From a virus (taxonomy: Duplodnaviria; Heunggongvirae; Uroviricota; Caudoviricetes), in the IMG/VR virus record IMGVR_UViG_3300014890_000015, positions 1-45,853 of that record: a DNA stretch of 45,853 bases. One strand, given 5' to 3'. Under the pieces are notes generated by a model. It worked only from the letters and a program-made list of their open reading frames with translations. It was not told the origin of the DNA and did not search any database. The first letter of the stretch is position 1; every line of letters starts with the position of its first letter. Positions 26,211-44,301 of this stretch are shown here, in pieces. Made by a program: the position numbers and the translations under genes.

Positions 26211-26285
<75 letters not shown>

Positions 26286-26288
26286 ATA

Positions 26289-26364
<76 letters not shown>

Positions 26365-26630: not shown

Positions 26631-26714
26631 TCTGGTAAAGTTCATGCGCTTGACTCGCCTCGCGATACAGCTTTGCGAAGCATACCGGAATTGAAGCAGT
26701 TTATGCGTAAAAAA

Positions 26715-27544: not shown

Positions 27545-28143
27545 TACGCAAACTCCAGTAACTGTGCGGCCACATTTTCGACTTCCTCCGGAGAGGAAAA
27601 TTTACGGAACAGGATCCAGTTCCACAGCACATTCAGTACAGATTTATAAACCTGCTGAAACTCGGTTTCGTCCATGTTCGCAAATGCGATAGATTTTGCC
27701 CTGCGCCCACGACTACCATCAGGATAAATATGCTCGGTGTAAAATCCTGCCTGAATGGTTACCCACTCGCGGAAAGCGTCAAACGACTTTAGCAATGCCG
27801 TATCCCGGGTTCTGCGTGTCGCAACTGTATTCAGATATTGCTCTGCGGCTTCGCTCAGAGCTGGCGTATGTTCCCGGCCTACTGATTCGCACAGATAATC
27901 AACGAAACCGGACACCAGTTTTCGTTCGCGAGGAGTGATCGCCCCACCGACCGGAGTCCAGTAATCGAATCCGAGTTGCAGAAGTTTGAAAAAACGCTTA
28001 TGGAATGCGTAGTTACGAACGCGCTTAAAATCAGCGTGTATCCACTCGCCTATTTTGATTTGATGCAGAAAATCACAACTCTCCGGCGTCGCCGGGAGAA
28101 GTAATCCGGAAGAGGTTTGTTTGACCAGTTGTATATGCGCCAT
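27544..28143 (-). CDS. DUF1367-like nin-region protein (YbcN-like)
   Basis: ATG 28143 with TGGAGA RBS; family assignment from memory and synteny. Confidence 0.45.
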   Translation of the reverse strand: MAHIQLVKQTSSGLLLPATPESCDFLHQIKIGEWIHADFKRVRNYAFHKRFFKLLQLGFDYWTPVGGAITPRERKLVSGFVDYLCESVGREHTPALSEAAEQYLNTVATRRTRDTALLKSFDAFREWVTIQAGFYTEHIYPDGSRGRRAKSIAFANMDETEFQQVYKSVLNVLWNWILFRKFSSPEEVENVAAQLLEFA

Positions 28144-28202
28144 TGCTGTCTCCAATGGCGCTGTAGGTTGCCAGTTGTTCAGGCTGGCTTACGAATTATA
28201 AC

Positions 28203-28376
28203 TCATTCGCGAACCACCTTGAAACCGAGCCTTTCAAGGTATTCAATGAATGCCTCGATAGATAAAATTACATGATCATCAGGGATTAACGTTGTGTAGA
28301 CAACTTTCCCATTCTCAACGCGCACAGCATAGAGGCCATTTTCACTAAAAATTTCACGCAATTCTTCGATTTTCAT
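28203..28376 (-). CDS. hypothetical protein (57 aa)
   Basis: ATG preceded by GGAAGGA RBS. Confidence 0.35.
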   Translation of the reverse strand: MKIEELREIFSENGLYAVRVENGKVVYTTLIPDDHVILSIEAFIEYLERLGFKVVRE

Positions 28377-28566
28377 CTTCAGAATCCTTCCAGATAAATA
28401 GCTCTTCCCCTTCGGGGTCCATCCCTCTTCTCCCTGCGCGCTACTTAAGAGCCTCGATTCTAGCCGTGAAGACATACCGATCAACAGCAATAAGCCACCT
28501 GAATAACAGAATCAGCCAGCCACATCAGTACAACCAGATGCATCATGCTCACCGAAAATAAACAAC

Positions 28567-28590
28567 AAAAAACCCGCCGAAGCGGGTTTT
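28567..28590 (-). terminator. terminator hairpin downstream of Doc-like gene
   Basis: AAAAAACCCGCCGAAGCGGGTTTT; T-run on coding strand. Confidence 0.55.
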
Positions 28591-28604
28591 CATTAGAAGC
28601 ATCT

Positions 28605-29090
28605 TTAGTTTTGCTGTTCTATTTTAAGCTTGATAGTTTCATACAAAACAATAGTTGCGCCTGTTTTACATAATTCCCGACTGTCATACGCACGAGACCA
28701 ATAACACAACCAATTTTCAAGCTCTTCTCGTGTATAAATTTTACAGGCCAGCCCCTCAGCCATCTCCACAACTTCATCGCCTGGTGCGGTTAATTCGTAT
28801 CCATTTAACAATAAAAAAACCGCACCAGCCATCATTGCTGTGCGCTTGTTTGCATTGGCAAATGGATGATTCTGAATCAGACTTTCAATCAATACCGATG
28901 CCAGTACAAACATGTCGTTGGTTTGCTCATACCATCGAACCATACTGGGACGAGACTGAGAAGAGCTTAAATTATCAACACTCAGCACACCAACAGGTTC
29001 ATCTGGTGTTTGAAGCTCAATTAAAAGGCGATTAATTTCAGTAAGATCATCAACCGAAAGGTAGTGCACTCCTTCAACAATCTCAGCCAT
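28605..29090 (-). CDS. Doc-like (Fic/Doc family) toxin
   Basis: HPFANANKRTAMMAG matches the Doc H-x-F-x-(D/N)-(A/G)-N-K-R signature; 9-nt gap after an upstream small ORF. Confidence 0.65.
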   Translation of the reverse strand: MAEIVEGVHYLSVDDLTEINRLLIELQTPDEPVGVLSVDNLSSSQSRPSMVRWYEQTNDMFVLASVLIESLIQNHPFANANKRTAMMAGAVFLLLNGYELTAPGDEVVEMAEGLACKIYTREELENWLCYWSRAYDSRELCKTGATIVLYETIKLKIEQQN

Positions 29091-29108
29091 AGAGCACAAT
29101 ACCCATCA

Positions 29109-29288
29109 TTACACTTTTGAAAGATCTTCCATTGCCTTCTCGTAACGAGAAAAACCGAAATCGAAAGCATTTTTCACCTGCTCACGATGAGTGCAATTTT
29201 CATCGATAGCCGGGCGCGGAGCTGCCACAACGCTTTTATCGCGAGGGGGAATAGTCAATCGCGGGTGTTTTTTTAGTGCGTAGCTCAT
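29109..29288 (-). CDS. putative antitoxin partner of Doc-like toxin (59 aa; not in ORF track)
   Basis: ATG with AAGGG RBS; stop 9 nt before toxin start; palindromic operator-like sequence (29351-29374) in its upstream region. Confidence 0.4.
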   Translation of the reverse strand: MSYALKKHPRLTIPPRDKSVVAAPRPAIDENCTHREQVKNAFDFGFSRYEKAMEDLSKV

Positions 29289-29406
29289 TGGTGTACCCTT
29301 ACTTCTCTGTCCTGTTCTTTAACAAAAATTAAGTCAATACAAAATTAGTCAGGCTAATGTTGTTAGCATAGCCTAATACCAATCGTATTCACAACCACAG
29401 TACGTG

Positions 29407-29427
29407 AAAAAACCCGCCGAAGCGGGT
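29407..29427 (-). terminator. terminator hairpin downstream of hok (same 22-nt core as 28567-28590)
   Basis: AAAAAACCCGCCGAAGCGGGTT; T6 on the minus strand. Confidence 0.5.
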
Positions 29428-29497
29428 TAAGTGCGGGTGCGTTGAGGATGCCAACACATCAGAGGTGGCGGGAGATTACTCTCCCGCCTGGTCACTC

Positions 29498-29653
29498 TTA
29501 CTTCTCAGATACGTAGTCCACGAAGACAGCGACCTCCGTCTGGCCGGTTCGGATTCGTACCTCGCAGAGGTCTTTCCTCGTTACCAGTGCCGTCACTATG
29601 ACGGTTAAACAGATGACGATCAGGGCGATTAACATCGCCTTTTGCTGCTTCAT
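29498..29653 (-). CDS. hok: Hok/Gef-family type I toxin
   Basis: 51 aa MKQQKAMLIALIVICLTVIVTALVTRKDLCEVRIRTGQTEVAVF... ; AAGGAG RBS; upstream in-frame/overlapping leader consistent with mok-like region. Confidence 0.8.
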   Translation of the reverse strand: MKQQKAMLIALIVICLTVIVTALVTRKDLCEVRIRTGQTEVAVFVDYVSEK

Positions 29654-29992
29654 AGCCTGCTTCTCCTTGCCTTTCGGCACGTAAGAGGCTAACCTGATGT
29701 TGTCATGCATAGGGAGCCTCAGATTAATGTTAAGCGTCTTGCCGGACGCGTAATGTTAACTGGGGCTTTTCTCTGCCTGCCTTACAGTGGCATGCCCGAG
29801 GCAGACAGCCTCAAGCACCCGCAGCAATCTTACCGACACCGATAAGAAAACGCTATTTTTTATTGCCAGCACCTTCTATCCAGGCTAATTTATCTGCGTC
29901 AGAACGGCGCAATGCGCTCGCCTGAGATACGTTTACTTGCCATGGTAACAACAGATAACGGCAATTGTTGTTTCTGTTTTGTTTCCTTCAAA

Positions 29993-30025
29993 AACCCCGG
30001 ACCATCAATCCGGGGTTTTTGTTTG
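29993..30025. terminator. bidirectional terminator-like hairpin (CCCCGG...CCGGGG)
   Basis: Flanked by A5 and T5 runs; between the 274-aa gene and the hok leader. Confidence 0.4.
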
Positions 30026-30105
30026 TTATCCCCAACGGCAAATCGAATACACCACCAGCGCCACCGCCATTGCAATTCCTACCGTTGTGAACGCTTCAGA
30101 CCAGG

Positions 30106-30930
30106 TCATCGCAAAACATCCTCTGCACTTATCAGTTCGTTCCGCTTCAGGTAGTCCATCGCCTTATCCGGCAATTTACAGTCCGGCTTCACTTTCTTCA
30201 GTTGACTGACCAATTGCTTAACCAGCATGGTTAATTCGTCAGTCTGTTTGCCTGGTACTGGTGGATTGTCGGTTGTTCCATGACTGGCAGTACAGTTGGC
30301 ACTTCCTCCCTTCTCCTCCCGCAGCGGTTCAGGCAACGCATCCAGTGAAGCTTTCACAAACCACGCTGCCTGTACTATAACGCCATGAATCCAGCGCAAA
30401 TCAGCATCACGATCTTTCTTTTTCATCTTCTCGCCACTTAAAGCCTGGCTTATGTGGCTGCGTACCAGGTCTTCATGTAACTCCTTCGCATCCTCAATAG
30501 TGAAACCACCAGGCAGGCGAGCCGAGGTTACATGAGGGTTGCCTTCCCTCTGACTCTGAAGCATGGCGGCGCGGCAGGCGTTCCAGCCATCAACATAATC
30601 AAACGTATTGCTATCGTCTGGCTCGATTTCAGCCGGCACTATCAGCGCAGGCTGGACGGCAACATTGGCAAAGGCTGCACGCAAACCGGCCTTAATTTCC
30701 TCTACTTCATCAGCGCCTAGCGATGAATCTGACAATGCGTGATGGAATGCGTAAGCCATGTCGTCGTTGATTTCTACAGACACACTATCAGCCTTGCGGC
30801 GCTCCTGTAGCTCGCGCAGAGCCGCTGCAACATAATGACTATTGTGCTGGTCAGCCCACAGAATGAGCCGAATCAACGTTGCATTTGAAACGTATTCGTC
30901 TGTTAGTTTGCTATTGGTAAAAGTGGTCAT
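30106..30930 (-). CDS. hypothetical protein (274 aa)
   Basis: Long ORF in nin-like region; no family recognised. Confidence 0.4.
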   Translation of the reverse strand: MTTFTNSKLTDEYVSNATLIRLILWADQHNSHYVAAALRELQERRKADSVSVEINDDMAYAFHHALSDSSLGADEVEEIKAGLRAAFANVAVQPALIVPAEIEPDDSNTFDYVDGWNACRAAMLQSQREGNPHVTSARLPGGFTIEDAKELHEDLVRSHISQALSGEKMKKKDRDADLRWIHGVIVQAAWFVKASLDALPEPLREEKGGSANCTASHGTTDNPPVPGKQTDELTMLVKQLVSQLKKVKPDCKLPDKAMDYLKRNELISAEDVLR

Positions 30931-30982
30931 GCCGTAGCCCCTTCTTGATATTTTTCAAACCAGAACACAACCGGGTCAGATT

Positions 30983-31270
30983 TCATTTCAACCAATCCCN
31001 NNNNNNNNNAAGGAATTCACGACGACCATCACTGATAATTCGCCGATAATCTTCCAGGCTACTGCAATGCTTGTGCAGATTGCATGGGTGGCATGCCGGA
31101 ACCATGTTGGATATATCGTCACGATCCTGGTGAAGCATATTTCCAGCAAAACGAATGACCGGTTTTACGTGGTCTGCGTGCCACTTTTCGCCAAGTTCGC
31201 AGCCGCAATAAGCACAGCGACCGCCGAACTTCATGCGTAATTCTGCACGTTGTTTTTTCGTCAGTGCCAT
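30983..31270 (-). CDS. HNH endonuclease (3' end interrupted by 10-N gap)
   Basis: CAYCGC...HADHVKP...CHPCNLHK HNH/Zn motif; AAGGAA RBS at ATG 31270; Ns at 31000-31009 fall inside the C-terminal codons. Confidence 0.55.
   Translation of the reverse strand: MALTKKQRAELRMKFGGRCAYCGCELGEKWHADHVKPVIRFAGNMLHQDRDDISNMVPACHPCNLHKHCSSLEDYRRIISDGRREFLXXXXDWLK
31000..31009. other. run of 10 ambiguous bases (assembly gap or mask)
   Basis: Literal n characters in the sequence. Confidence 0.95.
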
Positions 31271-31271
31271 T

Positions 31272-31490
31272 TCAGTTTTCCTTATATGGATTAATTTTAT
31301 TGTGCAGTGTATTGAACGACGCCCATACCACGTCGTTATACAATTCAATAAATAGCTCAATTATTTTTCCGATTCCCCATACCAGAATTAAAGGGGATAT
31401 CGGTATCATCAACACGATAAACAGAATGAGAAACAGGAGTTCTATTACCCTGCTTTTTCGCGGATAAATTTTTTTAAATAATGTAGGCAT
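31272..31490 (-). CDS. small membrane protein (72 aa)
   Basis: AAAGGAGAG RBS; one long hydrophobic segment; AT-rich; 1-nt gap to HNH start. Confidence 0.45.
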   Translation of the reverse strand: MPTLFKKIYPRKSRVIELLFLILFIVLMIPISPLILVWGIGKIIELFIELYNDVVWASFNTLHNKINPYKEN

Positions 31491-31491
31491 A

Positions 31492-31686
31492 TCACTCTCC
31501 TTTAGTGCGGAAGTGGTTTTTCCAGCGGTTTTGTGCCGCGCTTCTGTTTCGCCAGACACCGTAAAAACGAATAGAGGACCACTCCCTAAAACCAAGATAT
31601 CTATAGCGAACAACAAGTCGATTTGAGATACGAATAAGTTGCCCTGGCTTTGCTATCAGCAGTCTTGCCTTACGGTTTTTCATCAT
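31492..31686 (-). CDS. hypothetical basic protein (64 aa)
   Basis: AGGAGA RBS; ATGATG start overlapped by stop of upstream small ORF. Confidence 0.35.
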   Translation of the reverse strand: MMKNRKARLLIAKPGQLIRISNRLVVRYRYLGFREWSSIRFYGVWRNRSAAQNRWKNHFRTKGE

Positions 31687-31853
31687 TTTGCTCTCCTGCG
31701 TTTCTTTGCTTCGCGTCGTGCAGCAGCAATACCGGTATGGCGCTTTGGTGCCGGGATGATGTTGTCAGCCATCAGGATATTCGGCTTTGCAATTAGCGCA
31801 GAAGCCCAAAAACGAGTCGGGTACGGTAACAGGCCGATACATGCCACACGCAT
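31683..31853 (-). CDS. hypothetical protein (56 aa; not in ORF track)
   Basis: AAGGAGGTGA RBS and ATG overlapping upstream stop (TAATG); stop overlaps next start. Confidence 0.35.
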   Translation of the reverse strand: MRVACIGLLPYPTRFWASALIAKPNILMADNIIPAPKRHTGIAAARREAKKRRRAK

Positions 31854-32332
31854 TACTCACCTCCTTTGGCGTCAATATTTACAGCCTGGCAAGCCTCGTT
31901 GAGCACCCAGTCAACCGCGTCTTTCCATGCTCCGGTTTCAGCTGGCGGATTCTCACACTTTACCTGTTCATAGAAGCGTACAGCCTTAACCAGTCCGTCC
32001 GGCACTGCCTGTACCATCTGCGCCCTGACCCACGCCACCCGCGACGGGTTCATATGGCACATGTTGTTCCTTTTTTCTTCATGGTAATGCCCATTACTCT
32101 CGTTAAATGGCAACACCTCATACAGCCCGGCACTTCTGAAATCCGTGTGTAATTGTTCCAGTGCCGCTTCGCTGGGGGCACCAATTAATGTGAGATAATC
32201 AAAAAGATTGGCGCATAAACCATAACTTTGAGAAAACACCCCGCCGGGTTTCGCCCCATTACTCAGCCACAAATCATAAGCAATATAAAACCCGTAAAGC
32301 TGTTGTCTGATATTTTCTTTGATGTCTTGCAT
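31853..32332 (-). CDS. hypothetical protein (159 aa)
   Basis: GGTGA RBS before ATG 32332. Confidence 0.4.
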   Translation of the reverse strand: MQDIKENIRQQLYGFYIAYDLWLSNGAKPGGVFSQSYGLCANLFDYLTLIGAPSEAALEQLHTDFRSAGLYEVLPFNESNGHYHEEKRNNMCHMNPSRVAWVRAQMVQAVPDGLVKAVRFYEQVKCENPPAETGAWKDAVDWVLNEACQAVNIDAKGGE

Positions 32333-32427
32333 TATTTATCACCGCCCTTTAGGGCGGCCTCCTGATGTTCTGAGGGTGCAGAAATCCCTCCGGTTAAGGA
32401 TTAAATTTTTAACAGTGCTAAATTTAT

Positions 32428-32784
32428 TTATTCAGTTCTGGGTTTTGTCGCCCTGCGTATCCGCGCTTTCGCGTTACGCTCAATCTGAATTAACTTTTCT
32501 ATATTTTTCCGTCTTTCCTGTTCCTCCTGGCGCAATAGCCTTACATCATCTGCCAGTCTGGTTTCTCTTTTCGCCACAGAGAGCATCCAGTCAAACGGCT
32601 CCACAACTGCACCGCAGATTTTACAGCGGACCTGACGCTCTTTTTCGTCAACCCGGACAGAGGCGTGATGGCAATATGGTCTTTCCGATGGCTCATAAAG
32701 AAAATTAACCTGATTACGTGGGTCATCCTCTTTTGCCGGAAATAAAACAATATTACTTAACTCATCTTCTGGTTTTATTTCCAT
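32428..32784 (-). CDS. hypothetical Cys/His-containing protein (118 aa)
   Basis: AAGGAGAGGAG RBS before ATG 32784; CHH...C..C pattern. Confidence 0.4.
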   Translation of the reverse strand: MEIKPEDELSNIVLFPAKEDDPRNQVNFLYEPSERPYCHHASVRVDEKERQVRCKICGAVVEPFDWMLSVAKRETRLADDVRLLRQEEQERRKNIEKLIQIERNAKARIRRATKPRTE

Positions 32785-33253
32785 ACTCCTCTCCTTTGAT
32801 ATGAATGCCAGCAACACGTAGTTCATGTTCTAAGTCAGCCAGATAAAGCCAGCAGCCATTTTCTTTAGGTATCATGACGTGGCGCTCATCATCATTTATC
32901 GGGTGTCCATATCGAAGACCGTAGCGAGTCGGCAAATGAACTTCCCGCGCTTCCAGCTCTTTAACGCGTCCCTCGAGTTCGTAGACTCTGCATTGTTCTT
33001 TATCATCAATCAGATATAACCCAAGACATTCGCTTTCTACCCAGCCACCGAAATCATGATCGTAACGCTCACACGAAAACTCACCATCGCTGTCCTTTGT
33101 TGGAATGGTGTAACTGTCTAATGGGCCGCCATACGTCGGCACATTGCCCAATTTCGGATGCTCAATCCACATGAAAAATGCACGTCCGGTTATAGGACAA
33201 ATATCTGGTCGCCATTGGTTACTCACTGTTTGCCTCCTGGAAAATAACTGCAT
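32762..33253 (-). CDS. hypothetical protein (start ambiguous: ATG 33253 or GTG 33226)
   Basis: ORF in nin-like block; AGGAGG lies 7 nt before GTG 33226. Confidence 0.35.
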   Translation of the reverse strand: MQLFSRRQTVSNQWRPDICPITGRAFFMWIEHPKLGNVPTYGGPLDSYTIPTKDSDGEFSCERYDHDFGGWVESECLGLYLIDDKEQCRVYELEGRVKELEAREVHLPTRYGLRYGHPINDDERHVMIPKENGCWLYLADLEHELRVAGIHIKGEEYGNKTRR

Positions 33254-33518
33254 GCCCCAGTTTCTCCGCCAGCGCCAGTTCTGCCTTAGCGCCTGCTGAC
33301 CGCTGCCAGCCTTTCAGCATGTAAATCGCATCCACACAACGAATCATTGCCATGCAAATATCCATGTAGTGTGGCTGTGTCAGCCCGTCTGGAAGTACTG
33401 CCAGGTTTAAGACTGTATGCCCTTCCCGTTTCAGTTCCTCTTCCGCCTTGTGGAACGCCTCACGGTTGAAATTTTTATACCCGGTCATTGGACCGGCAAT
33501 ATAGACTCTCACCCTCAC
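33219..33518 (-). CDS. DUF4406-like protein
   Basis: N-terminal VYIAGPMTG..NF..F pattern recalled as DUF4406; GTG start with AGGAGGTGA RBS. Confidence 0.45.
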   Translation of the reverse strand: MRVRVYIAGPMTGYKNFNREAFHKAEEELKREGHTVLNLAVLPDGLTQPHYMDICMAMIRCVDAIYMLKGWQRSAGAKAELALAEKLGHAVIFQEANSE

Positions 33519-33937
33519 GTCATCACCTCCTGAAAATTACCCTGATAAAACGCCAGCACACGCTGCATAACCTTGCTTTTCCGGCACTCGCGACAGATTA
33601 TGTTCTGACGCCTGTCGTAGCGGCGTATTTCTCCGTCTGGTAACGACCAGATAAGGTCCGGATCAACCACAGATGTTTTCTTCAGCTTTGCTCTCGAGAG
33701 TTTTTTGCGGGCGTTTTGCCAGTCCTTACGAGCCTGTTCAGACGGGAATAACCCGTAACCAGAGTTGTATACATCGCCACTGGCAACCAGCTCTCTTGCG
33801 AGAACGCTCATCAGATATCTTGTCGCACCTGTCTTGGCTTCCAATTGTCGTAACGTCTCGCGTCCACTCAGACGTACAAGTTCAACAACCTGCCCTTTAA
33901 TTTTTTCCCGCTCTTCTTGTGTAAATACTTTTGCCAT
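33515..33937 (-). CDS. hypothetical protein (140 aa)
   Basis: ATG 33937 placed after upstream stop; basic C-terminus. Confidence 0.35.
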   Translation of the reverse strand: MAKVFTQEEREKIKGQVVELVRLSGRETLRQLEAKTGATRYLMSVLARELVASGDVYNSGYGLFPSEQARKDWQNARKKLSRAKLKKTSVVDPDLIWSLPDGEIRRYDRRQNIICRECRKSKVMQRVLAFYQGNFQEVMT

Positions 33938-33953
33938 AAGCGCCCCCCGGCAA

Positions 33954-34715
33954 TCACTTTTCCGACACAATACGACTGGAGGAATCGACAATCTGTCGAA
34001 CAATATCCCGGTGCTTGTTCAGCTCCCGCAGCGCGGCGCAGACTCGCTCCCACTTCTGGACATGACTTTTCGCCCGACGCAGTTCACGGTTTGCCATATG
34101 CAGCGATGGTAAAACCAGGTCATCCGCTTGCGTTTCGGTGAACGATGGCAACGACTGCACAATGTCCGTCACAGTTTCTGTTTTAATATCTTCCTGTGCG
34201 GCAGCTTCCTGTACCGGTAACGCAACACCTGCTGGCTGAAGAGAGGCTTTACCATCAGTTTTCTCTACCGATGCTGCTTTCGGCTCTGCTGGTAAATTAT
34301 CGCCCGGTATGCAGTAACGAAATTTACCGCCCTGATTTACGCGAATCAGACGACCTTTGCTGATTGCCATTGCCAGCGTTGAAGCCACTTTGCGTGATGT
34401 GGTACCAAACAATGTAGCCAGCTCATCAGCCGTTTGTGGTCCGCGTTGTTCAATCGTCGCGGTTAAATCGCACTCTGAGATTTTCGCTACTGTTGCTGTG
34501 GTGGTTTCTTCCGGCAGTTCTGCCTGCGCTGGCTGTTCCTGCTGAACGTTGTTATCAGCCACACGCCAGGTGTACGCGCTTTTATCAACAAAACCAGCCT
34601 TTTTCAGTTCCCATAGTTCGTTCAGCACTTCTTCACGACTGATATCAAGTCGCGCAGCAAGTTCTATGGATGTGGCTTTTCCCATTGCTTTCAGTGCGTC
34701 AAAAACAGTCTCCAT
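33954..34715 (-). CDS. hypothetical protein, possible winged-helix DNA-binding N-terminus
   Basis: GGGAGA RBS before ATG 34715; follows DnaC-like gene. Confidence 0.4.
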
Positions 34716-35490: not shown

Positions 35491-36279
35491 TTACCCCCTG
35501 AAGCCTGGCGGGATCGCACTGTCCGGCAACGAGACGGTGTTAACCTGTCGGAGCAACGTCTCAGGCCGAACACCTTTCGGCGCGAACAGGCCCTGGTATT
35601 CATTGGCGATGCTGTGTCGAATCACCTGCTCAGGTGTAAAACCCTGCTGACGGAATTTTTCCAGTTCCCGTATCGCCCCGTTAGCGCCCTGCTCCGTTCG
35701 AATCGGTTTTCGCAATGCCTGTCTGAACCGGACCCACTCATGCCAGAGTGTTTCCGGCAACCAATCGGGCAGCTCAATAGCCTCCGGCTCGAATTTTTTA
35801 GACGCTCGTTTTTGGCGAGGGGGATTTAGGGGGAGATCAGTATTTATATCTTCCTCTTCCTCTTCCTCTGGTAACGCTTTTTGATCCGTTTGTGTAACGC
35901 TGGCAGCGTTACCTTTTCGTTTCAGTTCGCGTATTTTTGTAACTCGCTCGTTTGTAACCGCCCGTTTTTTAGAGCTTTTTCCGTTATGACGTTCAAAGTT
36001 AGGTAGAGAAAGCCCAACGTCATTTTCGACCAGCCATCCAACCTGAATTAACGCATCAGCAAAACCAGCCATAAAAGTGATGCGATCTATTGCACTTTTT
36101 GTAACGCCGCGAGCGTTACAATCTGCATTACCGTCTATCATTTGTTGATCCGCCCATGCCCAGAAGCGAATAACCTTCCCTAATGCGGCATCTGGATCAA
36201 TATTCAGAATCTCAGCAAGCCTGAATATTTCCGGCTTATCCGGCGTAATAACCTCGAGCTTTATCCAGTTTGAAGCCAT
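35491..36279 (-). CDS. replication initiation / replisome organiser protein
   Basis: 262 aa immediately upstream of DnaC-like gene; acidic E-run linker. Confidence 0.45.
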   Translation of the reverse strand: MASNWIKLEVITPDKPEIFRLAEILNIDPDAALGKVIRFWAWADQQMIDGNADCNARGVTKSAIDRITFMAGFADALIQVGWLVENDVGLSLPNFERHNGKSSKKRAVTNERVTKIRELKRKGNAASVTQTDQKALPEEEEEEDINTDLPLNPPRQKRASKKFEPEAIELPDWLPETLWHEWVRFRQALRKPIRTEQGANGAIRELEKFRQQGFTPEQVIRHSIANEYQGLFAPKGVRPETLLRQVNTVSLPDSAIPPGFRG

Positions 36280-36356
36280 TTGTTTTCACCTTGTAACGCT
36301 CGCAGCGTTACATTTAACTGATACCGAACAAAACAGTCCGGCGCGATTAATTTCAA

Positions 36357-36779
36357 TCAATGCACTACGACAGAATCGCCAGGCGACCCGCCGCCGCTGA
36401 AATGTGCTTTACGGTAAACGGCCTGGACTGCATCATCATGCGCATCAATTGCCGTACTCAACGCTTCCTGCGCCGCCAGTAATGCACGGCGTTCCAGGGT
36501 ATCGAAGATGCAGAGTCGGTGACGCAGCTCGCGCGGAAGGATTGCCAGAATTGCAGGGATCAGTTTCTGAATTTTTTCCCTTTGCGCTTCCGTTTCACCT
36601 TTTAACCAACGGTGATAGATGTTCTGCTGATTATTCCAGTCCTTGCCTGGTACCAGGGGCAATTCGCCGCCCCCCTGGCGCAGATATTCTTCAGTAATTG
36701 CGTTAGCGACCCACGCCTGCCCTTTTTCAGCGGCTAGGGCTAACAACACTGATTCGATGTGCTCATGCCTGATTTTCAT
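36357..36779 (-). CDS. YdaT-like (CII-position) protein
   Basis: 140 aa; resembles Rac prophage YdaT from memory; overlaps Cro-like gene end. Confidence 0.5.
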   Translation of the reverse strand: MKIRHEHIESVLLALAAEKGQAWVANAITEEYLRQGGGELPLVPGKDWNNQQNIYHRWLKGETEAQREKIQKLIPAILAILPRELRHRLCIFDTLERRALLAAQEALSTAIDAHDDAVQAVYRKAHFSGGGSPGDSVVVH

Positions 36780-37038
36780 GAATCAACTCCTGTGCATTTT
36801 GTGTGTTAGCCTTACATCCAACAGGTAAACCATCGGTCGGATTCGGGTAGATATCAGGCCGGAGTTCATGAGGTGTAACCTCGAAATTCGTAGCCTCTGC
36901 GATACGCAATACCTTTTCAGGGCTTAACTGACTACGTCCAGTAGCAGCGAGGCTAATCATTGATTGCGAACAACCAGCCAGCGCGGCCAAACAAGACTGT
37001 CGTACACGATTTTTTTTCAAATATTCATCTAATGTCAT
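36763..37038 (-). CDS. Cro/YdaS-like HTH protein
   Basis: GAGGTGA RBS; HTH-like segment; first gene of rightward early operon, divergent from repressor. Confidence 0.5.
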   Translation of the reverse strand: MTLDEYLKKNRVRQSCLAALAGCSQSMISLAATGRSQLSPEKVLRIAEATNFEVTPHELRPDIYPNPTDGLPVGCKANTQNAQELIHENQA

Positions 37039-37114
37039 AAGTGTCACCTCAGTAATGCTCACCAAAATATTAACCATACTAATTTAAATGATCAATACCT
37101 ATATCAGTTTGAGA

Positions 37115-37142: not shown

Positions 37143-37607
37143 ATGAGAAGAAAACGCGAAGAAATCGCATCGCCGGAAGCTACGCAACGTCTGCGCGCAA
37201 TCTGGGATGCAAAAAAAAGAGAGCTCAAACTGACTCAGGAGCTTGCTGCCGAGCTAATGGGTTTTGAGGCGCAATCTGCGGTTAGCCATTATCTCAACGG
37301 AAAGGCTCCACTTAATACTGATGCGGCATTAAAATTCGCTGTATTACTAAGAGTTAAGCCTGAAGAGTTGAGGCCTGATTTAGCTGATCTGATGAATTAC
37401 GTCCGTTCCTCAGGAACTTATGACGAAAGTTTCGAAGGCGAAGGTTGGCGGATGGTTAACAAGCAACAAGCTGATTTACTAGATCTTTTTGATATCCTTC
37501 CCGAATCAGAAAAAGCAAAACTAATCGAAAGACTTAAAGGTCAGAATGAACTCTACAAAGAAGCATTTGAAAATATGCTGGCAGCTCAAAAACGCATGAA
37601 GAAATAG
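37143..37607 (+). CDS. prophage repressor (RacR-like, HTH)
   Basis: 154 aa with Xre-type HTH segment; divergent from Cro-like gene; followed by terminator. Confidence 0.55.
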   Translation: MRRKREEIASPEATQRLRAIWDAKKRELKLTQELAAELMGFEAQSAVSHYLNGKAPLNTDAALKFAVLLRVKPEELRPDLADLMNYVRSSGTYDESFEGEGWRMVNKQQADLLDLFDILPESEKAKLIERLKGQNELYKEAFENMLAAQKRMKK

Positions 37608-37626
37608 CTCCCACCACCTCGTAACT

Positions 37627-37652
37627 AAACCGCCATTTTTGGCGGTTTTTTT
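37627..37652 (+). terminator. rho-independent terminator after repressor gene
   Basis: AAACCGCCA-TTTTT-GGCGGTTT followed by T-run. Confidence 0.6.
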
Positions 37653-37846
37653 GTCCCCTCCGCCCGCCCCGCCTTACTTTTTATCAAAAAAAACACTAAA
37701 AATTTCATTAGGATAGTACATTTTTATCAACAAAATGCATATTTCTATTGATCATCAATATGAACATTACTAATATTATTACAGAAGCAGCACGGCGCTG
37801 TAGGTTTTAGTTCCGCCACCCGGCGTTAAGGGGAAATGAGGTCAAC

Positions 37847-37999
37847 ATGGATACTATCGATCTTGGCAACAACGAATCTCTGGTATGTGGCGTGTTTCCC
37901 AATCAGGACGGCACATTCACCGCCATGACGTATACCAAAAGCAAATCGTTTAAAACCGAAGCTGGCGCACGTCGCTGGCTTGCCAAAAATACCAGCTAA
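37847..37999 (+). CDS. small protein (50 aa; DUF1391/YdaF-like; not in ORF track)
   Basis: GAGGT RBS before ATG; assignment from memory of Rac ydaF region. Confidence 0.4.
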   Translation: MDTIDLGNNESLVCGVFPNQDGTFTAMTYTKSKSFKTEAGARRWLAKNTS

Positions 38000-38245
38000 A
38001 CCATTTATTGGATTAATTCAATATTCTTGCTGTAGGGGTATAGCCGAGGCCACCAAAGCCCGGAGGTGGTGAAATAAAACCGGGCACAACACGAAGGCGC
38101 ATTTCCGGTATCCATAAAGAGTCGGTCTTGTCTGTTAAATTTAAATGGTGGGAGTGCGCCTCCGGTTGTGAATAACAACACTGCTGTGTGTAGTCCTGGC
38201 GGCATCAGTTTTTTCTTGAAGTTCGACTGATGTCCGCCCTTTTTA

Positions 38246-38391
38246 AAGTGAATTTTGTGATGCGGTGAATGCGGCTCAGCGCACGCGGAACAGTTAAAAC
38301 AAGCGACCTTATGGGTGAAATGCTCCGGCGTTAATTGTTAACTGGTTAACGTCACCTGGAGGCACCAGGCACCGCATCACAAAATTCACTT
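38246..38391. repeat. 22-bp perfect inverted repeat pair (38246-38267 / 38370-38391) flanking a 102-bp spacer
   Basis: AAGTGAATTTTGTGATGCGGTG and its exact reverse complement; spacer contains GTTAACTGGTTAAC. Confidence 0.7.
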
Positions 38392-38412
38392 AGTAACCAA
38401 GAAGGGAATTAT

Positions 38413-38685
38413 ATGCAAGAGATAAGTTTTGAAGTAACAGCAAAAGATGTACAGGTTAAGCCCGATTACAATCAAAAATTATGTATTGAAGTCAATGGCG
38501 TGAAGTTATCAGACCTGATTGATTCAGTTGAAGATAACGACGCTATTATTGAAATGGTTGGAGCCGAAGAAATAGCAGAATACTTTTCAACAGAGGGGCG
38601 TCTTCATGAGCTTCTGGAAGAATTTCCATATCAGGATATCGCTACATTTCTGGAAATTAATGGTTATAAAATTACCGAGGAATAA
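38413..38685 (+). CDS. hypothetical acidic protein (90 aa)
   Basis: ORF starting 20 nt after the inverted-repeat structure. Confidence 0.4.
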   Translation: MQEISFEVTAKDVQVKPDYNQKLCIEVNGVKLSDLIDSVEDNDAIIEMVGAEEIAEYFSTEGRLHELLEEFPYQDIATFLEINGYKITEE

Positions 38686-38703
38686 AGTAGCTCAGGTGGC
38701 GTT

Positions 38704-38913
38704 ATGGAACGTAATCATCTAACAGCTATCAGTGCCGCACAGAGTAAATTCGCCATCGCTGTATTTTTACAGGATGAAGAAATGTTTGAGCAGGCCATTA
38801 TTCAGTTTGCAATTGCGACCGGGAGTAAAATAAATGAACACTTTGTTCGCTCTTGTCATGACCGTTTTTCTGACATCAGGCGAAACTCAGGATGTTGTTA
38901 CCGGAATTTATAA
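38704..38913 (+). CDS. hypothetical protein (overlaps next gene by 80 nt; extent uncertain)
   Basis: ORF-track frame only. Confidence 0.25.
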   Translation: MERNHLTAISAAQSKFAIAVFLQDEEMFEQAIIQFAIATGSKINEHFVRSCHDRFSDIRRNSGCCYRNL

Positions 38914-39651: not shown

Positions 39652-42600
39652 ATGAGCACAAAACCACTCTTCCTTTTACGGAAAGCGAAAAAATCATCCG
39701 GTGAACCTGACGTCGTCCTGTGGGCAAGCGACGATTTTGAATCAACCTGTGCCACTCTGGACTACCTGATCGTTAAGTCAGGTAAAAAACTGAGCAACTA
39801 TTTTAAAGCTGTTGCCACAAATTTTCCTGTCGTTAATGAACTTCCCCCTGAAGGTGAGATCGATTTTACCTGGTGTGAACGCTATCAACTCAGCAAAGAC
39901 TCCATGACCTGGGAACTAAAACCGGGAGCAGCGCCAGACGACGTTCACCATCAGGAGGATGCACAGGAAACCGAAGAACCGACGGGAGGCCAGGAAGAAA
40001 ACGCGCAGGCAGACGCCCACGAGGATTGCCAGGATTGCGAAGTCTCTGTAGCCACTTTGCGGTTCACACAGCGTCTTCTGCACATTTTTACGTATGCAGC
40101 CGGGGATCGAAAATACCTGCATCATGCCACCCGTGAACAACGCAAACACATTACTGCTCTTGAGATGGATCAGGAAAACAGCTATGTCCAGAATCTGCTG
40201 TTGGCCATACGCAGCATGGCAGAACCGACAACTCTGGATAATGCCGCCCTGCTCCGCCTGACTGATGCAATTAAGGCAGTGTTCTCTATCACGAAAAAAC
40301 ATCAGCCCTATGAATTTAAGAATTTCATTTCAGCCTGGCTGGATACCGAACACATTGATCGCGGTCTTCTGACAAAAGAATGGCGAAAAGGGAATCGTGT
40401 TTCACGCATCACTCGCACGGCTTCCGGTGCTAATGCTGGCGGCGGGAACCTCACCGATCGCGGCGAAGGTTTCGTCCACGATCTGACGTCACTGGCGCGC
40501 GATGTAGCCACTGGCGTACTGGCCCGTTCAATGGACGTGGACATCTATAACCTTCATCCGGCACACGCTAAACGCATTGAGGAAATTATCGCTGAAAATA
40601 AACCGCCCTTTTCTGTTTTCCGCGACAAATTCATCACCATGCCTGGCGGGCTGGATTATTCCCGCGCCATCGTGGTTGCGTCCGTGAAAGAAGCACCAAT
40701 AGGGATCGAGGCCATCCCCGCACACGTCACTGAATATCTGAACAAAGTACTGACTGAAACCGATCATGCCAACCCTGATCCGGAAATCGTGGATATTGCC
40801 TGCGGTCGTTCCTCTGCCCCGATGCCGCAGCGTGTAACAGAAGAAGAAAAACAGGATGATGAAGAAAAACTGCAACCATCTTGCGCAATGGCAGATGAAC
40901 AGGCAACGGCTGAAACAGTGGAACCGGATGCAACTGAACATCATCAGGACACGCAGCCGCTGGATGCTCAGTCACAGGTAAATTCTGTTGATGCGAAATA
41001 TCAGAAACTGCGGGCAGAACTCTATGAAGCCCGGAAAAACATTCCGCCCAAAAATCCTGTCGATGCAGACAAATTACTGGCTGTCTCTCGCGGAGAATTT
41101 GTTGAAGGGATTAGCGACCCGAATGATCCGAAATGGGTTAAGGGGATCCAGACCCGCGATTCTGTGTACCAGAATCAGCCAGAAACGGAACAGAACGACC
41201 CAAATACGCAACAAAACGAGCCAGAAACGAAACAGCCTGAGCCAGTAGTGCAACAACAGGAAACGGAGAAAGTTTGCACCGCCTGCGGTAAGGCTGGCGG
41301 CGGCAACTGTCCTGACTGTGGTGCGGTGATGGGCGACGCAACGTATCAGAAAACCTTTAATGAAGAAAATCAGAATGAATATCAGGAAAAAGGTCTGGAG
41401 GAAATGGAAGGTGCTGAACATCCGCACAAGGAGAACGCTGGCAGCAATCCGCATTGCGATTGCAGTGATGAAGCTGGTGAAACGACAGCACCTGTAGTAA
41501 CTGAAATCATGTGGCCGTCATATTTCGAGCCTGGCCGCTATGAAAACCTCCCGAACGAGGTTTATCACTCCGCCAACGGAATAAGCAGCACAATGCTGAA
41601 GGATGCCCGCATCAGCCTGATGTATTACCACGGACGGCACATTGCCGGAACTATTCCGGGCGAGGAAAGTGATGCATTGCTGCGTGGGCGGATTATTCAC
41701 AGCTATGTTCTGGAAACGGATAAATTCGCTGATGAGTATGCCATTCCGGTACCGGTTCCTGAATATGTGGTTACTACTTCTAACGAACTGATCGCCATCA
41801 TTAAAAAACACAATGCCAGTCTGCCAGCACTGATGACACCAGAGCAGATGAAAGAGTGGATCGAAAGCTACAACAGCACTCTTATACAGCCACTGTCGGT
41901 AAGTGCCGGGGCCGAAGAAACAGGCATCCTTTACGGTTCGCTTCCGGAGGAATTCCGGCGTATTCCTGAGGGGGAAAAACACACAGCATCAGCAATGAAA
42001 GCCTGTATTAAAGAATACAACGCAAGCCTCCCTCCTCTGCTGAAAGCCAGTGGAACACGAGAGCAGCTCCTGGAGCAAATTGAAACTGTAGATCCAGAAC
42101 TGGCAAAAAAAGAACGTGCTAAATCTTTGCCTTACAACATCAGTGGCACAAAAGAGCAATTAACCGAAATCGCCCGGAAAATTCGCCCGGAACTGGTAAC
42201 ACTGGAGGACTGGCAAAAACGCCAGCAAGAAGAAAACGCCGGGAAAACGTTTATCAGTCCGGATATGTATGAACAGGCAAAAAATATTCACGCAGCACTG
42301 CAAAACAATACTGATGCAGCAAGGCTACTCAACCACCCGGATCGCAAATCTGAAATCAGCTATTTCGGGTTTGATGAAGAAACCGGGCTGGAAATCAGGG
42401 TCCGTCCTGATATCGAAATCCGGCTGCCATACGAAAGCATTTGCGCCGACGTGAAGTCAGTCAGCCTCGGTTATGTGCGACAGGAACGACTGAAAGATCG
42501 CCTGCACCGTGAAATTATTGAACGTGATTATCACCTCAGCGCAGCAATGTATTGCGATGTGGCAAACCTGGACAAATTTTTCTGGATCTTCGTCAACAAA

Positions 42601-42798
42601 GATGCTGGCTATCACTGGGTGGCCGTCGTGGAAGCCTCGCAGGAACTCCTGGAACTTGGTCGACAGGAATATCGCCGGACACTACGACAGATAAACGAAG
42701 CTCTGGAGACAAACAACTGGCCAGCACCGATTACCGAAAGTTATACCGACGAATTAAACGACTTTGATCTTCGTCGTCTTGAAGCACTGAGCATCTGA
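39652..42798 (+). CDS. recE: exodeoxyribonuclease VIII (RecE-like)
   Basis: N-terminus [26 protein letters not shown] recalled as RecE-like; C-terminal PD-(D/E)xK-type nuclease region (RPDIEI...ADVKS); Q/E/P-rich low-complexity linker near 41160-41260. Confidence 0.7.
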
Positions 42799-43925: not shown

Positions 43926-44120
43926 ATGCGGTATGAAAAAGTCAAAGCATGTCCGTTTTGTGGTTGTCCATCAGTAACGGTGAAAGCTATTTCAGGATAT
44001 TACCGCGCGAAGTGTAACGGATGCGAATCCCGAACCGGCTATGGTGGAAGTGAAAAAGAAGCACTCGAACGATGGAATAAACGAACCACTGGAAATAATA
44101 ATGGAGGTGTTCATGTATAA
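43926..44120 (+). CDS. Lar-family restriction alleviation protein
   Basis: MRYEKVKACPFCGC...C..C...ERWNKR zinc-ribbon pattern typical of Lar/RalR. Confidence 0.55.
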   Translation: MRYEKVKACPFCGCPSVTVKAISGYYRAKCNGCESRTGYGGSEKEALERWNKRTTGNNNGGVHV

Positions 44121-44301
44121 AATTACCGCCACTATTGAAAAGGAAGGTGGCACTCCTACTAACTGGACAAGGTACTCAAAAACAAAGTTAACCAAATCGG
44201 AATGCGAAAAAATGCTCTCGGGGAAAAAAGAAGCAGGCGTTTCCAGAGAGCAGAAAGTAAAGCTGATAAATTTTAATTGCGAGAAACTTCTGCCCTCGTG
44301 A
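44113..44301 (+). CDS. hypothetical small protein (62 aa)
   Basis: GGAGGTG RBS before ATG 44113. Confidence 0.4.
   Translation: MYKITATIEKEGGTPTNWTRYSKTKLTKSECEKMLSGKKEAGVSREQKVKLINFNCEKLLPS

What the first reader, a model, noticed from the sequence alone, without database searches (positions are those of the whole stretch)
38246..38391. 22-bp perfect inverted repeat pair in the early-left operon
AAGTGAATTTTGTGATGCGGTG (38246..38267) recurs as its exact reverse complement at 38370..38391, 102 bp away and 20 nt before the next gene. A perfect 22-bp repeat is far beyond chance in a window this size. It could form a long RNA stem in the early-left transcript (processing or retroregulation site), be a protein-binding pair, or be the ends of a small mobile or invertible element.
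Basis: seen in the sequence. Interest (0 to 1): 0.45.

Follow-up and report, generated by a model that had tools for sequence, protein, structure and literature searches.

The report
RNase III stem after DicF-like sRNA
The 22-bp inverted repeat is the basal helix of a conserved, folded RNA spacer between a DicF-like small RNA and the cell-division-inhibitor ('kil') genes of a Rac/Qin-type prophage; it is the counterpart of an RNase III cutting site reported in E. coli K-12 in 1990, so it is real but mostly already explained.

Summary
Arms 38246-38267 and 38370-38391 are 22/22 complementary, with 0 matches expected by chance.

It is not a mobile element or a protein-binding palindrome. It is the closing helix (P1) of a ~146-nt, four-helix RNA element on the + strand. 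The element lies between a DicF/KilS-like sRNA with its terminator (38148-38244) and the next cistrons (38413-38685, then a lambda-Kil-like ORF).

The same element lies between dicF and dicB in K-12 Qin and between kilS and kilR in K-12 Rac. It occurs in 4642 of 5426 complete E. coli genomes and downstream of all 106 genuine DicF-like loci sampled.

In 32 distinct variants, 10 of the 22 P1 pairs show compensatory changes. G·U pairs on the + strand outnumber A·C by 59 to 6, which points to selection on the sense RNA.

Reviews citing Faubladier 1990 report RNase III processing of read-through dicBF mRNA 19 nt past the 53-nt DicF end. By my arithmetic that falls at nt 13 of this stem. An rnc-mutant RNA-seq table flags the dicF-dicB spacer.

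The inner domain is a sub-threshold relative of Rfam STnc100 (40.7 bits, cut-off 47). Its own function is unknown.

Verdict: new member of a known kind; interest moderate to low.

The parts
38086..38171 (+). Imperfect hairpin of about 20 bp upstream of, and overlapping, the 5' end of the DicF/KilS-like sRNA. Tentatively a second RNase III target.
   Evidence: It appears in the MFE and centroid folds of 38000-38250. The K-12 KilS 5' end (1418502) maps into its 3' arm. The rnc/WT RNA-seq peak at 1418510, 'kilR-sieB', is in PMC5371410 Table S1. An RNase III site upstream of DicF is reported in Qin (PMC10448788). Cleavage at this hairpin is inferred, not shown.
38148..38244 (+). DicF/KilS-like small RNA. 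Its 3' part is a terminator hairpin (~38198-38239) followed by a T-run (38240-38244).
   Evidence: Rfam DicF RF00039 matches 38185-38239 at 39.3 bits (below the cut-off of 48), E 8.4e-7. The stretch is near-identical to the annotated K-12 Rac ncRNA kilS b4833. KilS was validated by northern blot in PMC8175672.
38246..38267 (+). P1 5' arm: the left arm of the 22-bp inverted repeat.
   Evidence: On alignment A2, 10 of 22 P1 pairs change on both sides and 96.2% of cells are paired. By homology with the 72-nt DicF species of Qin, I predict an RNase III cut after ~38258 (inference).
38270..38283 (+). P2 hairpin, UGCG-GCUCAG-CGCA.
   Evidence: MFE fold. It is 99% paired but almost invariant in A2, so there is no covariation for or against it.
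38329..38351 (+). P4 hairpin, CGUUAA / UUAACG, with a conserved loop UUGUUAACUGG.
   Evidence: 5 of its 6 pairs show compensatory changes in A2, while the loop is nearly invariant.
38355..38369 (+). P5 hairpin, CCUGG-AGGCA-CCAGG. It is part of the motif UCACCNGGAGGCACCNGGCAC shared with STnc100.
   Evidence: The N positions covary, U-A versus G-C. The motif is present in more than 120 IMG/VR prophage stretches. There is a single copy in the window.
38370..38391 (+). P1 3' arm: the right arm of the inverted repeat.
   Evidence: The predicted partner cut, assuming a 2-nt 3' overhang, falls near 38380/38381. That would leave a leader of about 32 nt on the downstream mRNA (inference).
38241..38416 (+). 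Extent of the sub-threshold match to Rfam STnc100 (RF02076).
   Evidence: 40.7 bits against a gathering score of 47, E 3.7e-7, model positions 1-206. In the reciprocal direction, model R1, built from this element type, hits bona fide STnc100 loci at E 1e-8 to 1e-3.
38413..38685 (+). First cistron downstream of the element, 90 aa, function unknown. GAAGGG at 38401-38406 is a likely Shine-Dalgarno sequence and lies outside the stem.
   Evidence: ORF list. phrog_7311 at E 3e-17 and a weak DUF5983_N match. The RBS is not paired with P1 in the fold.
38704..38913 (+). Second downstream cistron, carrying a lambda Kil (septation inhibitor) domain.
   Evidence: Pfam PF06301 Lambda_Kil at 32.1 bits, above the cut-off of 27.6; PHROG 'Kil protein for bacterial septation inhibition'.

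Best explanation
The two 22-nt arms pair in the + strand RNA. Together they form the basal helix (P1) of a ~146-nt structured spacer with four helices: P1, P2, P4 and P5. The spacer lies in the early-left (dicBF-type) operon of a Rac/Qin-like prophage.

Proposed sequence of events:
1. Transcripts that stop at the DicF/KilS-like terminator (T-run 38240-38244) never contain the element.
2. Transcripts that read through fold P1 into a perfect 22-bp duplex. That is the length the RNase III dimer accommodates.
3. Staggered RNase III cleavage follows, predicted after ~38258 and before ~38381.
4. Cleavage gives the DicF-like sRNA a 3'-extended end that can be trimmed back to the terminator hairpin.
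5. It excises the inner STnc100-like domain.
6. It leaves the downstream message (38413 onward, the kil module) with a 5'-monophosphate leader of about 32 nt.

The downstream mRNA's fate is thereby uncoupled from the upstream RNA. I predict this shortens its life and so damps expression of toxic genes from terminator read-through.

Shown here: the repeat, its conservation, the compensatory changes, the sense-strand G·U bias, and the homology to the Qin and Rac spacers and to STnc100.

Taken from the literature, for Qin only: RNase III processing in this spacer.

Inferred: the exact cut positions in this window, the effect on the downstream mRNA, and any function of the excised inner domain.
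For: - Exact 22/22 repeat with 0 expected by chance.
- The + strand RNA folds with P1 closing three inner hairpins: MFE -62.8 kcal/mol, z = -6.8.
- Alignment with the K-12 Qin dicF-dicB and Rac kilS-kilR spacers.
- Matches in 4642 of 5426 E. coli genomes, median 2 places per genome.
- In 32 distinct variants, 97.4% of cells are paired, against 34-41% when partners are slid. 16 pairs change on both sides, 10 of them in P1. None of 500 shuffles reaches the observed value.
- A sub-type (L029, L034, L082) has a completely different distal arm sequence that is still 20-22 bp perfect.
- 59 G·U cells against 6 A·C cells on the + strand.
- The element follows all 106 genuine DicF-like loci, always in the same orientation.
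- It is followed within 7-34 nt by dicB, kilR, small hydrophobic peptides or, in this window, a kil-containing module.
- With the annotated dicF coordinates, that end falls at nt 13 of the Qin left arm.
- The dicA-dicF-dicB intergenic region is listed among RNase III substrates (PMC2777011).
- An rnc/WT read-ratio peak at 1649470, labelled 'dicF-dicB, known', lies 7 nt (1649470 minus 1649463) past the Qin left arm (PMC5371410 Table S1).
- The RNase III valley accommodates about 22 bp (PMC6212723).
Against: - No experiment exists for this prophage.
- I could not read the primary paper (Faubladier 1990). The '72-nt' end is placed on the stem by my own arithmetic from secondary sources.
- A 2023 study (PMC10448788) describes RNase III as making the 5' end of a 190-nt DicF species upstream. 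It does not mention a downstream cut, so the literature is not uniform.
- The rnc RNA-seq signal rests on 26 reads against 0.
- Most of the P1 compensatory cells come from a few lineages: type C, L070 and L061.
- A plain RNase III hairpin does not need the invariant inner loops (UUGUUAACUGG, AGGCA) or the invariant junction motif GGUGAAU. Processing is therefore probably not the whole function.
- Relatives with an inner domain like this one but only a ~8-bp P1 exist (L110, L019).
Confidence: 0.7

Rival explanations
1. The element is mainly a cis-acting leader that controls the toxic downstream genes by its fold. That fold might bind a protein, or set translation or stability. The long P1 merely stabilises the fold, and RNase III cleavage is incidental.
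For: - Stems covary while the loops and the GGUGAAU junction stay invariant.
- The element always sits 7-34 nt upstream of dicB, kilR, Kil-like or small hydrophobic peptide genes.
- STnc100 relatives sit in the late leader ahead of holin/lysozyme or esterase genes.
Against: - The SD and start codon of 38413 lie outside P1 and are unpaired in the fold, so simple occlusion is unlikely.
- No ligand or binding protein is known.
- RNase III dependence is reported for the Qin homologue.
Confidence: 0.2
2. The inner domain is a trans-acting sRNA of the STnc100/PasD/EcOnc27 kind that binds Hfq. RNase III cutting at P1 releases it from the operon transcript.
For: - Sub-threshold but full-length STnc100 match, and reciprocal CM hits.
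- STnc100-region RNAs are reported as Hfq-bound (EcOnc27/sRNA103) and PasD is reported in RIL-seq (PMC12711010; bioRxiv 10.64898/2026.05.13.724894).
Against: - There is no terminator or U-tail after the element in the window.
- In K-12 wild type the spacer had 0 reads, against 26 in the rnc mutant. The excised piece therefore does not accumulate under those conditions.
- No ncRNA is annotated in the Qin or Rac spacers.
Confidence: 0.12
3. A put-like, cis-acting processive antiterminator RNA that binds RNA polymerase in the early-left and late operons.
For: - Promoter-proximal or leader positions. Type C lies just after cI. Type B lies 5-8 nt after TTGACA-N17-TAAATT promoters.
- Several copies per phage in different operons.
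- Conserved sequence in the loops.
- put RNA can act without remaining tethered to the transcript (PMC9378689).
Against: - No similarity to the HK022 put regions by Rfam, by motif or by model R1.
- In type A the element lies after the DicF terminator, not before it.
- Nothing here tests antitermination.
Confidence: 0.05
4. The repeat marks the ends of a small mobile (MITE-like) or invertible DNA element, or a pair of protein-binding DNA sites.
For: A perfect 22-bp terminal inverted repeat flanks a 102-bp segment. Mosaic junctions lie next to the element.
Against: - There is no target-site duplication.
- There is one copy in the window.
- The element always occupies the same syntenic slot and orientation behind DicF-like loci, 106 of 106. 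No empty site and no inverted core was seen.
- G·U outnumbers A·C by 59 to 6, so pairing is selected on one RNA strand, not in duplex DNA.
- No transposase or invertase gene lies nearby.
Confidence: 0.03

Closest known systems
Intercistronic dicF-dicB spacer of the E. coli K-12 Qin dicBF operon, with an RNase III processing site (Faubladier, Cam & Bouché 1990, as cited in PMC5069750, PMC9438474 and PMC2777011)
   Same: Homologous sequence at about 87% identity. The position is the same, immediately after the DicF terminator T-run and 15-21 nt before the next start codon. The four-helix layout is the same.
   Different: The Qin stem is 21 bp and has one or two G·U pairs. The window stem is 22 bp, all Watson-Crick. 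The central variable region differs by indels. The downstream gene is dicB there and a phrog_7311 gene plus a lambda-Kil-like gene here. Cleavage was mapped only in Qin.
kilS-kilR spacer of the K-12 Rac prophage (KilS: Bar et al. 2021, PMC8175672)
   Same: The upstream sRNA is near-identical to KilS, and the same element follows it. The closest E. coli match to the window element (97.5%) has kilR downstream.
   Different: The Rac stem carries a 1-nt bulge and G·U pairs. The sieB gene that separates ydaF from kilS in Rac is absent from the window. No processing data exist for the Rac spacer itself.
Rfam RF02076 STnc100 (also known as the EcOnc27/sRNA103 region; related to PasD)
   Same: Shared GGUGAAU after the closing stem. 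Shared hairpin with a CUGG-containing loop. Shared UCACCNGGAGGCACCNGGCACC 3' module. The closing stem covaries. There are CM hits in both directions.
   Different: The window element scores 40.7 bits, below the cut-off of 47. STnc100 proper has a closing stem of only 6-9 bp and a CCCCC/GGGG 5' hairpin. It lies in the late region between the Q-like gene or late promoter and the lysis, stx or esterase genes, often in tandem and next to tRNA genes.
Phage RNase III processing signals: T7 early R sites, the lambda N-leader site, lambda sib (from my own knowledge, not tested here)
   Same: Long hairpins inside polycistronic phage early transcripts. RNase III cleavage at them separates RNA segments and changes their stability or translation.
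   Different: There is no sequence relationship. Those hairpins have internal loops and no conserved multi-helix inner domain.
HK022 putL/putR antiterminator RNAs
   Same: Structured, cis-encoded RNAs in the leaders of lambdoid operons in phages that lack N.
   Different: put is about 70 nt with two stem-loops. No similarity was detected by any search.

Membership tests
dicF-dicB / kilS-kilR intercistronic RNase III hairpin of Qin/Rac-type prophages | Sequence homology to the K-12 Qin and Rac spacers | tested here: met
   Alignment A1. About 87% identity to most E. coli copies and 97.5% to the best. Model R1 scores 156.6 bits on the Rac spacer.
dicF-dicB / kilS-kilR intercistronic RNase III hairpin of Qin/Rac-type prophages | Synteny: directly after a DicF-like sRNA terminator and directly before a division-inhibitor module, in the operon downstream of the repressor gene | tested here: met
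   DicF-like/KilS-like RNA at 38148-38244. Lambda_Kil-domain ORF at 38704-38913. Repressor and DUF1391 genes upstream. All 106 DicF-like loci carry the element.
dicF-dicB / kilS-kilR intercistronic RNase III hairpin of Qin/Rac-type prophages | Sense-strand RNA duplex of about 20 bp or more, maintained by selection | tested here: met
   22 bp here. 10 of 22 pairs are compensatory and 96.2% of cells are paired. G·U to A·C is 59 to 6.
dicF-dicB / kilS-kilR intercistronic RNase III hairpin of Qin/Rac-type prophages | rnc-dependent cleavage within the stem in vivo | not testable with these tools
   Only literature on Qin is available. I placed the cut on the stem by arithmetic.
Rfam STnc100 (RF02076) | Score at or above the curated gathering threshold of 47 bits | tested here: not met
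   40.7 bits. Not reported in the gathering-threshold scan of the window. The Qin, Rac, L029, L082 and L070 copies are not called either.
Rfam STnc100 (RF02076) | Significant full-length similarity in sequence and structure | tested here: met
   E 3.7e-7 over model positions 1-206. Reciprocal R1 hits on loci that pass the STnc100 threshold, E 1e-8 to 1e-3. Caveat: those loci were chosen for sharing the 21-nt core motif.
Rfam STnc100 (RF02076) | Expressed as a discrete, Hfq-associated small RNA | not testable with these tools
   Reported for the stx2-proximal copy only. There were 0 wild-type reads over the Qin spacer.
MITE / small invertible element | Terminal inverted repeats | tested here: met
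   22-bp perfect arms.
MITE / small invertible element | Target-site duplication, dispersed copies in unrelated contexts, and empty or inverted sites | tested here: not met
   The flanks TTTTTA and AGTAAC are not duplicated. Single copy in the window. 106 of 106 DicF-like loci are occupied in the same orientation.
HK022 put antiterminator RNA | Similarity to putL/putR in sequence or structure | tested here: not met
   No STnc100, motif or R1 hit in HK022 24000-34000. put is about 70 nt with two stem-loops.
Intrinsic terminator | GC-rich hairpin followed by a U-run | tested here: not met
   The right arm is followed by AGTAACCAAG. The scan calls nothing at this site.

The most novel reading that the evidence does not exclude
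The dicF-dicB-type spacer and STnc100/PasD belong to one widespread superfamily of prophage RNA domains. Members share an invariant GGUGAAU junction, a CUGG-loop hairpin, a CCNGG-AGGCA-CCNGG hairpin and covarying stems.

Members sit in the leaders of the operon segments that carry a prophage's lethal genes (kil/dicB, small membrane peptides, holin/lysis, stx). On this reading the domain has a cis-acting function that nobody has described. Examples would be binding RNA polymerase or another factor, or gating the expression of lethal genes. In the early-left versions the 22-bp P1 would be an added RNase III 'release' module.
Probability: 0.15. Interest if true: 0.7.

Novelty: new member of a known kind. 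Interest (0 to 1): 0.33.

Why it matters
DicF, DicB and KilR are prophage products that stop host cell division. They matter for stress survival, phage exclusion and EHEC virulence. How read-through transcripts are split between the sRNA and the toxic proteins sets the dose of each.

This analysis shows that the spacer is not an inert linker. It is a conserved, covarying RNA present in most E. coli genomes, whose long stem matches the reported RNase III site.

It also ties the spacer to STnc100/PasD, an RNA family of unknown function found next to stx and the lysis genes. That link gives a concrete, testable handle on the family.

Tried and rejected
- **put-like antiterminator.** I fetched HK022 pL/pR. 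There was no Rfam STnc100 hit, no core motif and no R1 hit. I dropped it as a family assignment and kept it only as a low-probability analogy.
- **Small ORF inside the loop** (ATG at 38269, MRLSARGTVK...).
  - It looked interesting at first, because the window/Qin/Rac differences in the first 10 codons are synonymous.
  - However, the ORF length varies from 21 to 62 codons and the frame is broken by indels.
  - There is no SD, and the ATG lies at the top of P1.
  - The variable positions coincide with the P2 loop.
  - An ORF of about 20 codons staying open by chance is not unlikely. I judged it not supported.
- **MITE or invertible element.** Rejected.
- **Strand assignment by folding.** Folding both strands of the window element does not discriminate, because the stem is perfect. 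The strand comes from the G·U bias in relatives.
- **Primary literature.** Faubladier 1990 and Faubladier & Bouché 1994 (PMC205167) are not held. The supplement of Altuvia 2018 with nucleotide-resolution RNase III sites is not held either.
- **Promoter scan of 37550-38750.** It found nothing, so I cannot place the operon promoter or an independent KilS promoter.

Full report
**1. Observation**

The sequence AAGTGAATTTTGTGATGCGGTG lies at 38246-38267. Its exact reverse complement lies at 38370-38391, 102 nt further on. Allowing 3 mismatches, these are the only two copies in the 45.8-kb window, and none occurred in 100 dinucleotide-preserving shuffles. It is the longest perfect inverted repeat within 400 nt in the window. 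The right arm ends 21 nt before the ATG at 38413.

**2. Context**

The window is a Rac/Qin-like lambdoid prophage.
- Rfam finds RalA (44119-44297, - strand), sok, and two tRNA genes.
- On the + strand, the region around the repeat reads in this order:
  - an HTH repressor gene (37143-37607);
  - a DUF1391 ydfA/ydaF homologue (37847-37999);
  - the non-coding stretch 38000-38412;
  - a 90-aa gene of unknown function (38413-38685, phrog_7311);
  - an ORF with a lambda Kil septation-inhibitor domain (38704-38913; PF06301, 32.1 bits, above the cut-off of 27.6);
  - a DUF1482 ORF;
  - a RecE-type exonuclease VIII gene (39652-42798).
- A YdaS-like HTH gene (36763-37077) is transcribed divergently on the - strand.

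'Early-left operon' is therefore a fair description.

**3. What lies immediately upstream**

A permissive Rfam scan finds a DicF-like RNA at 38185-38239 (39.3 bits, below the cut-off of 48; E 8.4e-7). It ends in a hairpin followed by a T-run at 38240-38244. Alignment with K-12 shows that 38148-38244 is near-identical to the annotated Rac ncRNA KilS (b4833). KilS was validated by northern blot (PMC8175672). The left arm of the repeat starts two bases after the terminator T-run.

**4. Homologues**

The same alignment (A1) shows the repeat and the whole segment between its arms in two K-12 loci. One lies between dicF and dicB in cryptic prophage Qin. The other lies between kilS and kilR in Rac.

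- In RefSeq complete E. coli genomes, 4642 of 5426 carry a match. The median is 2 places per genome and the maximum is 9.
- The best match (97.5%) has kilR downstream rather than the window's gene. A mosaic junction therefore lies just after the right arm.
- Many lambdoid phage records conserve exactly the DicF terminator plus this element, at about 87% identity, while their flanks differ.
- I sampled IMG/VR loci with a DicF-core pattern. Of 111 evaluable matches, 5 were chance hits in unrelated DNA.
- All 106 genuine DicF-like loci carry the element downstream in the same orientation. In 100 the core motif is exact, and in 6 it has one substitution.
- No empty site and no inverted core was seen.

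**5. It is an RNA structure on the sense strand**

I aligned 32 distinct variants (A2) and scored a four-helix structure.

| Helix | Description | Result on A2 |
|---|---|---|
| P1 | the repeat, 22 pairs | 96.2% of cells paired; 10 pairs changed on both sides |
| P2 | UGCG/CGCA | invariant, so uninformative |
| P4 | CGUUAA/UUAACG, loop UUGUUAACUGG | 5 of 6 pairs compensatory; loop nearly invariant |
| P5 | CCNGG-AGGCA-CCNGG | 1 compensatory pair |

Overall, 97.4% of cells are paired, against 34-41% when the 3' partners are slid by 1-3 columns. None of 500 shuffles reaches the observed covariation.

The strongest single piece of evidence is a sub-type found in L029, L034 and L082. Its distal arm is a wholly different sequence (CAACAGACCTTGCAATGCAGTG) but still forms 20-22 perfect pairs. 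L070 and L061 add independent double changes.

Non-Watson-Crick cells are 59 G·U against 6 A·C on the + strand. On the - strand, or in duplex DNA, those G·U pairs would be mismatches. Pairing is therefore maintained in the + strand transcript.

One caution applies. These cell counts are not independent events, and most of the P1 covariation comes from a few lineages.

**6. Link to RNase III**

I could not read the primary paper. Three open-access sources cite it for the relevant facts:
- PMC2777011 lists the dicA-dicF-dicB intergenic region among RNase III substrates.

With dicF annotated at 1649382-1649434, a 72-nt species ends at 1649453. That is nucleotide 13 of the 22-nt left arm in Qin (sequence). 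This placement is my own arithmetic.

In the rnc-versus-wild-type RNA-seq of PMC5371410, Table S1 lists a read-ratio peak at 1649470, labelled 'dicF-dicB' and marked as a known site. It had 26 reads in Δrnc and 0 in wild type. The peak lies 7 nt (1649470 minus 1649463) past the left arm, inside the element.

RNase III accommodates about 22 bp of dsRNA and makes staggered cuts that leave 2-nt 3' overhangs (PMC6212723).

Transferred to the window, the predicted cuts fall after ~38258 and before ~38381.

Not all of the literature agrees. PMC10448788 assigns RNase III to the 5' end of a 190-nt DicF species upstream and does not mention the downstream cut. The two accounts are compatible if both hairpins are substrates. 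The window does have a second, imperfect hairpin of about 20 bp at 38086-38171. The same RNA-seq table lists a peak at 1418510, 8 nt upstream of the KilS 5' end.

**7. The '102-nt loop' is a conserved domain related to STnc100**

Rfam STnc100 (RF02076) matches 38241-38416 over its full length at 40.7 bits, below the gathering score of 47, with E 3.7e-7.

A search for the shared motif TCACCNGGAGGCACCNGGCAC returned more than 120 IMG/VR prophage stretches. They fall into two groups:
- the dicF-downstream type with a long P1 (10 bp plus a bulge plus 12 bp, or 20-22 bp);
- STnc100 proper, which scores 52-161 bits and has a covarying closing stem of only 6-9 bp (GCATGGTG/CACCATGC, TGTGGTG/CACCACA, CTACGGTG/CACCGTAG and others).

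A covariance model built from the long-P1 type (R1) hits STnc100 loci at E 1e-8 to 1e-3. Most of those hits lack the distal P1 positions. It also finds intermediates, L110 and L019, that combine a type-A-like P2 with a short P1. Because these loci were selected on the shared core motif, part of that score is there by construction.

STnc100 copies lie in the late region. Several sit 5-8 nt after a TTGACA-N17-TAAATT promoter, between a Q-position gene and the holin/lysozyme or nanS-p esterase genes. They are often in tandem and next to tRNA genes.

Published work treats STnc100/EcOnc27/PasD as prophage sRNAs of unknown function.

The long P1 therefore looks like an addition specific to the early-left versions. 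The invariant loops suggest that the inner domain does something beyond spacing the arms. I cannot say what.

**8. Mechanism I commit to**

Read-through transcripts fold P1, and RNase III cuts both arms. This matures the DicF-like sRNA from read-through RNA. It excises the inner domain. It leaves the kil-module mRNA with a 5'-monophosphate, unstructured leader of about 32 nt. I predict that this lowers the mRNA's stability and so damps expression of toxic genes. The SD and start codon of 38413 lie outside P1 and are unpaired in the fold. Direct occlusion of the ribosome-binding site is therefore unlikely. My confidence that the repeat is an RNase III-processed RNA helix is about 0.7. The downstream consequences are inference.

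**9. Rivals**

- A cis-regulatory leader whose fold matters more than cleavage (0.2).
- An excised trans-acting, Hfq-binding sRNA (0.12). Against it: there is no terminator after the element, and wild-type K-12 had 0 reads over the spacer.
- A put-like antiterminator (0.05). HK022 shows no similarity.
- A MITE, an invertible element or DNA-binding sites (0.03). Against it: no target-site duplication, fixed synteny and orientation, and the strand-specific wobble bias.
- An ORF starting at 38269 inside the loop was considered and judged unsupported.

**10. Verdict**

The repeat is real and functional. It is a new member of an element already known in K-12 Qin, the dicF-dicB RNase III site.

Three modestly new points come out of this analysis: the covariation support for a four-helix fold, the strict linkage to DicF-like sRNAs, and the relationship to STnc100/PasD.

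Interest is about 0.33.

Noticed in passing
window 36100-36121 and 36291-36312: A second 22-nt inverted repeat, 95% complementary. Each arm is itself palindromic (TGTAACGC-N6-GCGTTACA). It looks like two copies of a dimer-binding operator about 190 bp apart, next to the ydaT-like ORF at 36357-36779 on the - strand.
   Followed up: no
window 38086-38171: An imperfect hairpin of about 20 bp overlaps the 5' end of the DicF/KilS-like sRNA. The K-12 KilS 5' end maps into its 3' arm, and an rnc-dependent RNA-seq peak (1418510) lies 8 nt upstream of that end. The sRNA may therefore be bracketed by two RNase III hairpins.
   Followed up: partly
L005 1121-1794; L010 2265-3380; L020 3121-3798; L088 4349-5513: Rfam STnc100 copies occur in tandem arrays of 2-5. 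They lie between a late-type promoter or Q-position gene and the holin/lysozyme or nanS-p esterase genes, often next to phage tRNA genes. Their closing stems are short and covary.
   Followed up: partly
L029 9746-10351 (also L034, L082): A variant of the element has a completely different but perfect 20-22-bp P1. It sits just downstream of a cI-like S24 repressor gene with no DicF upstream. It is followed by a 36-aa hydrophobic, toxin-like peptide and a lambda-Kil-like ORF.
   Followed up: partly
window ~38396; L123 2501-2657: The nearest E. coli copy (strain CD45, 97.5% identity) is followed by kilR-ydaE, not by the window's phrog_7311 gene. A mosaic recombination junction therefore lies immediately after the right arm. 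The conserved RNA module seems to act as a boundary for gene-cassette exchange.
   Followed up: no
window 38269-38334: A short ORF (MRLSARGTVK..., 21 codons) starts at the top of P1. Its first 10 codons differ only synonymously between the window, Qin and Rac. However, its length and frame are not conserved (21-62 codons) and it has no SD, so it is probably not coding.
   Followed up: partly
window 37678-37692 and 37721-37735: A direct repeat, TTTTTATCAA(A/C)AAAA, spaced 43 bp apart, lies in the gap between the repressor gene and the DUF1391 gene. These could be operators or part of the early-left promoter region. The consensus promoter scan found nothing there.
   Followed up: no
window 37627-37648: A terminator-like hairpin with a T-run lies right after the repressor gene (37143-37607), upstream of the DUF1391 gene.
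   Followed up: no
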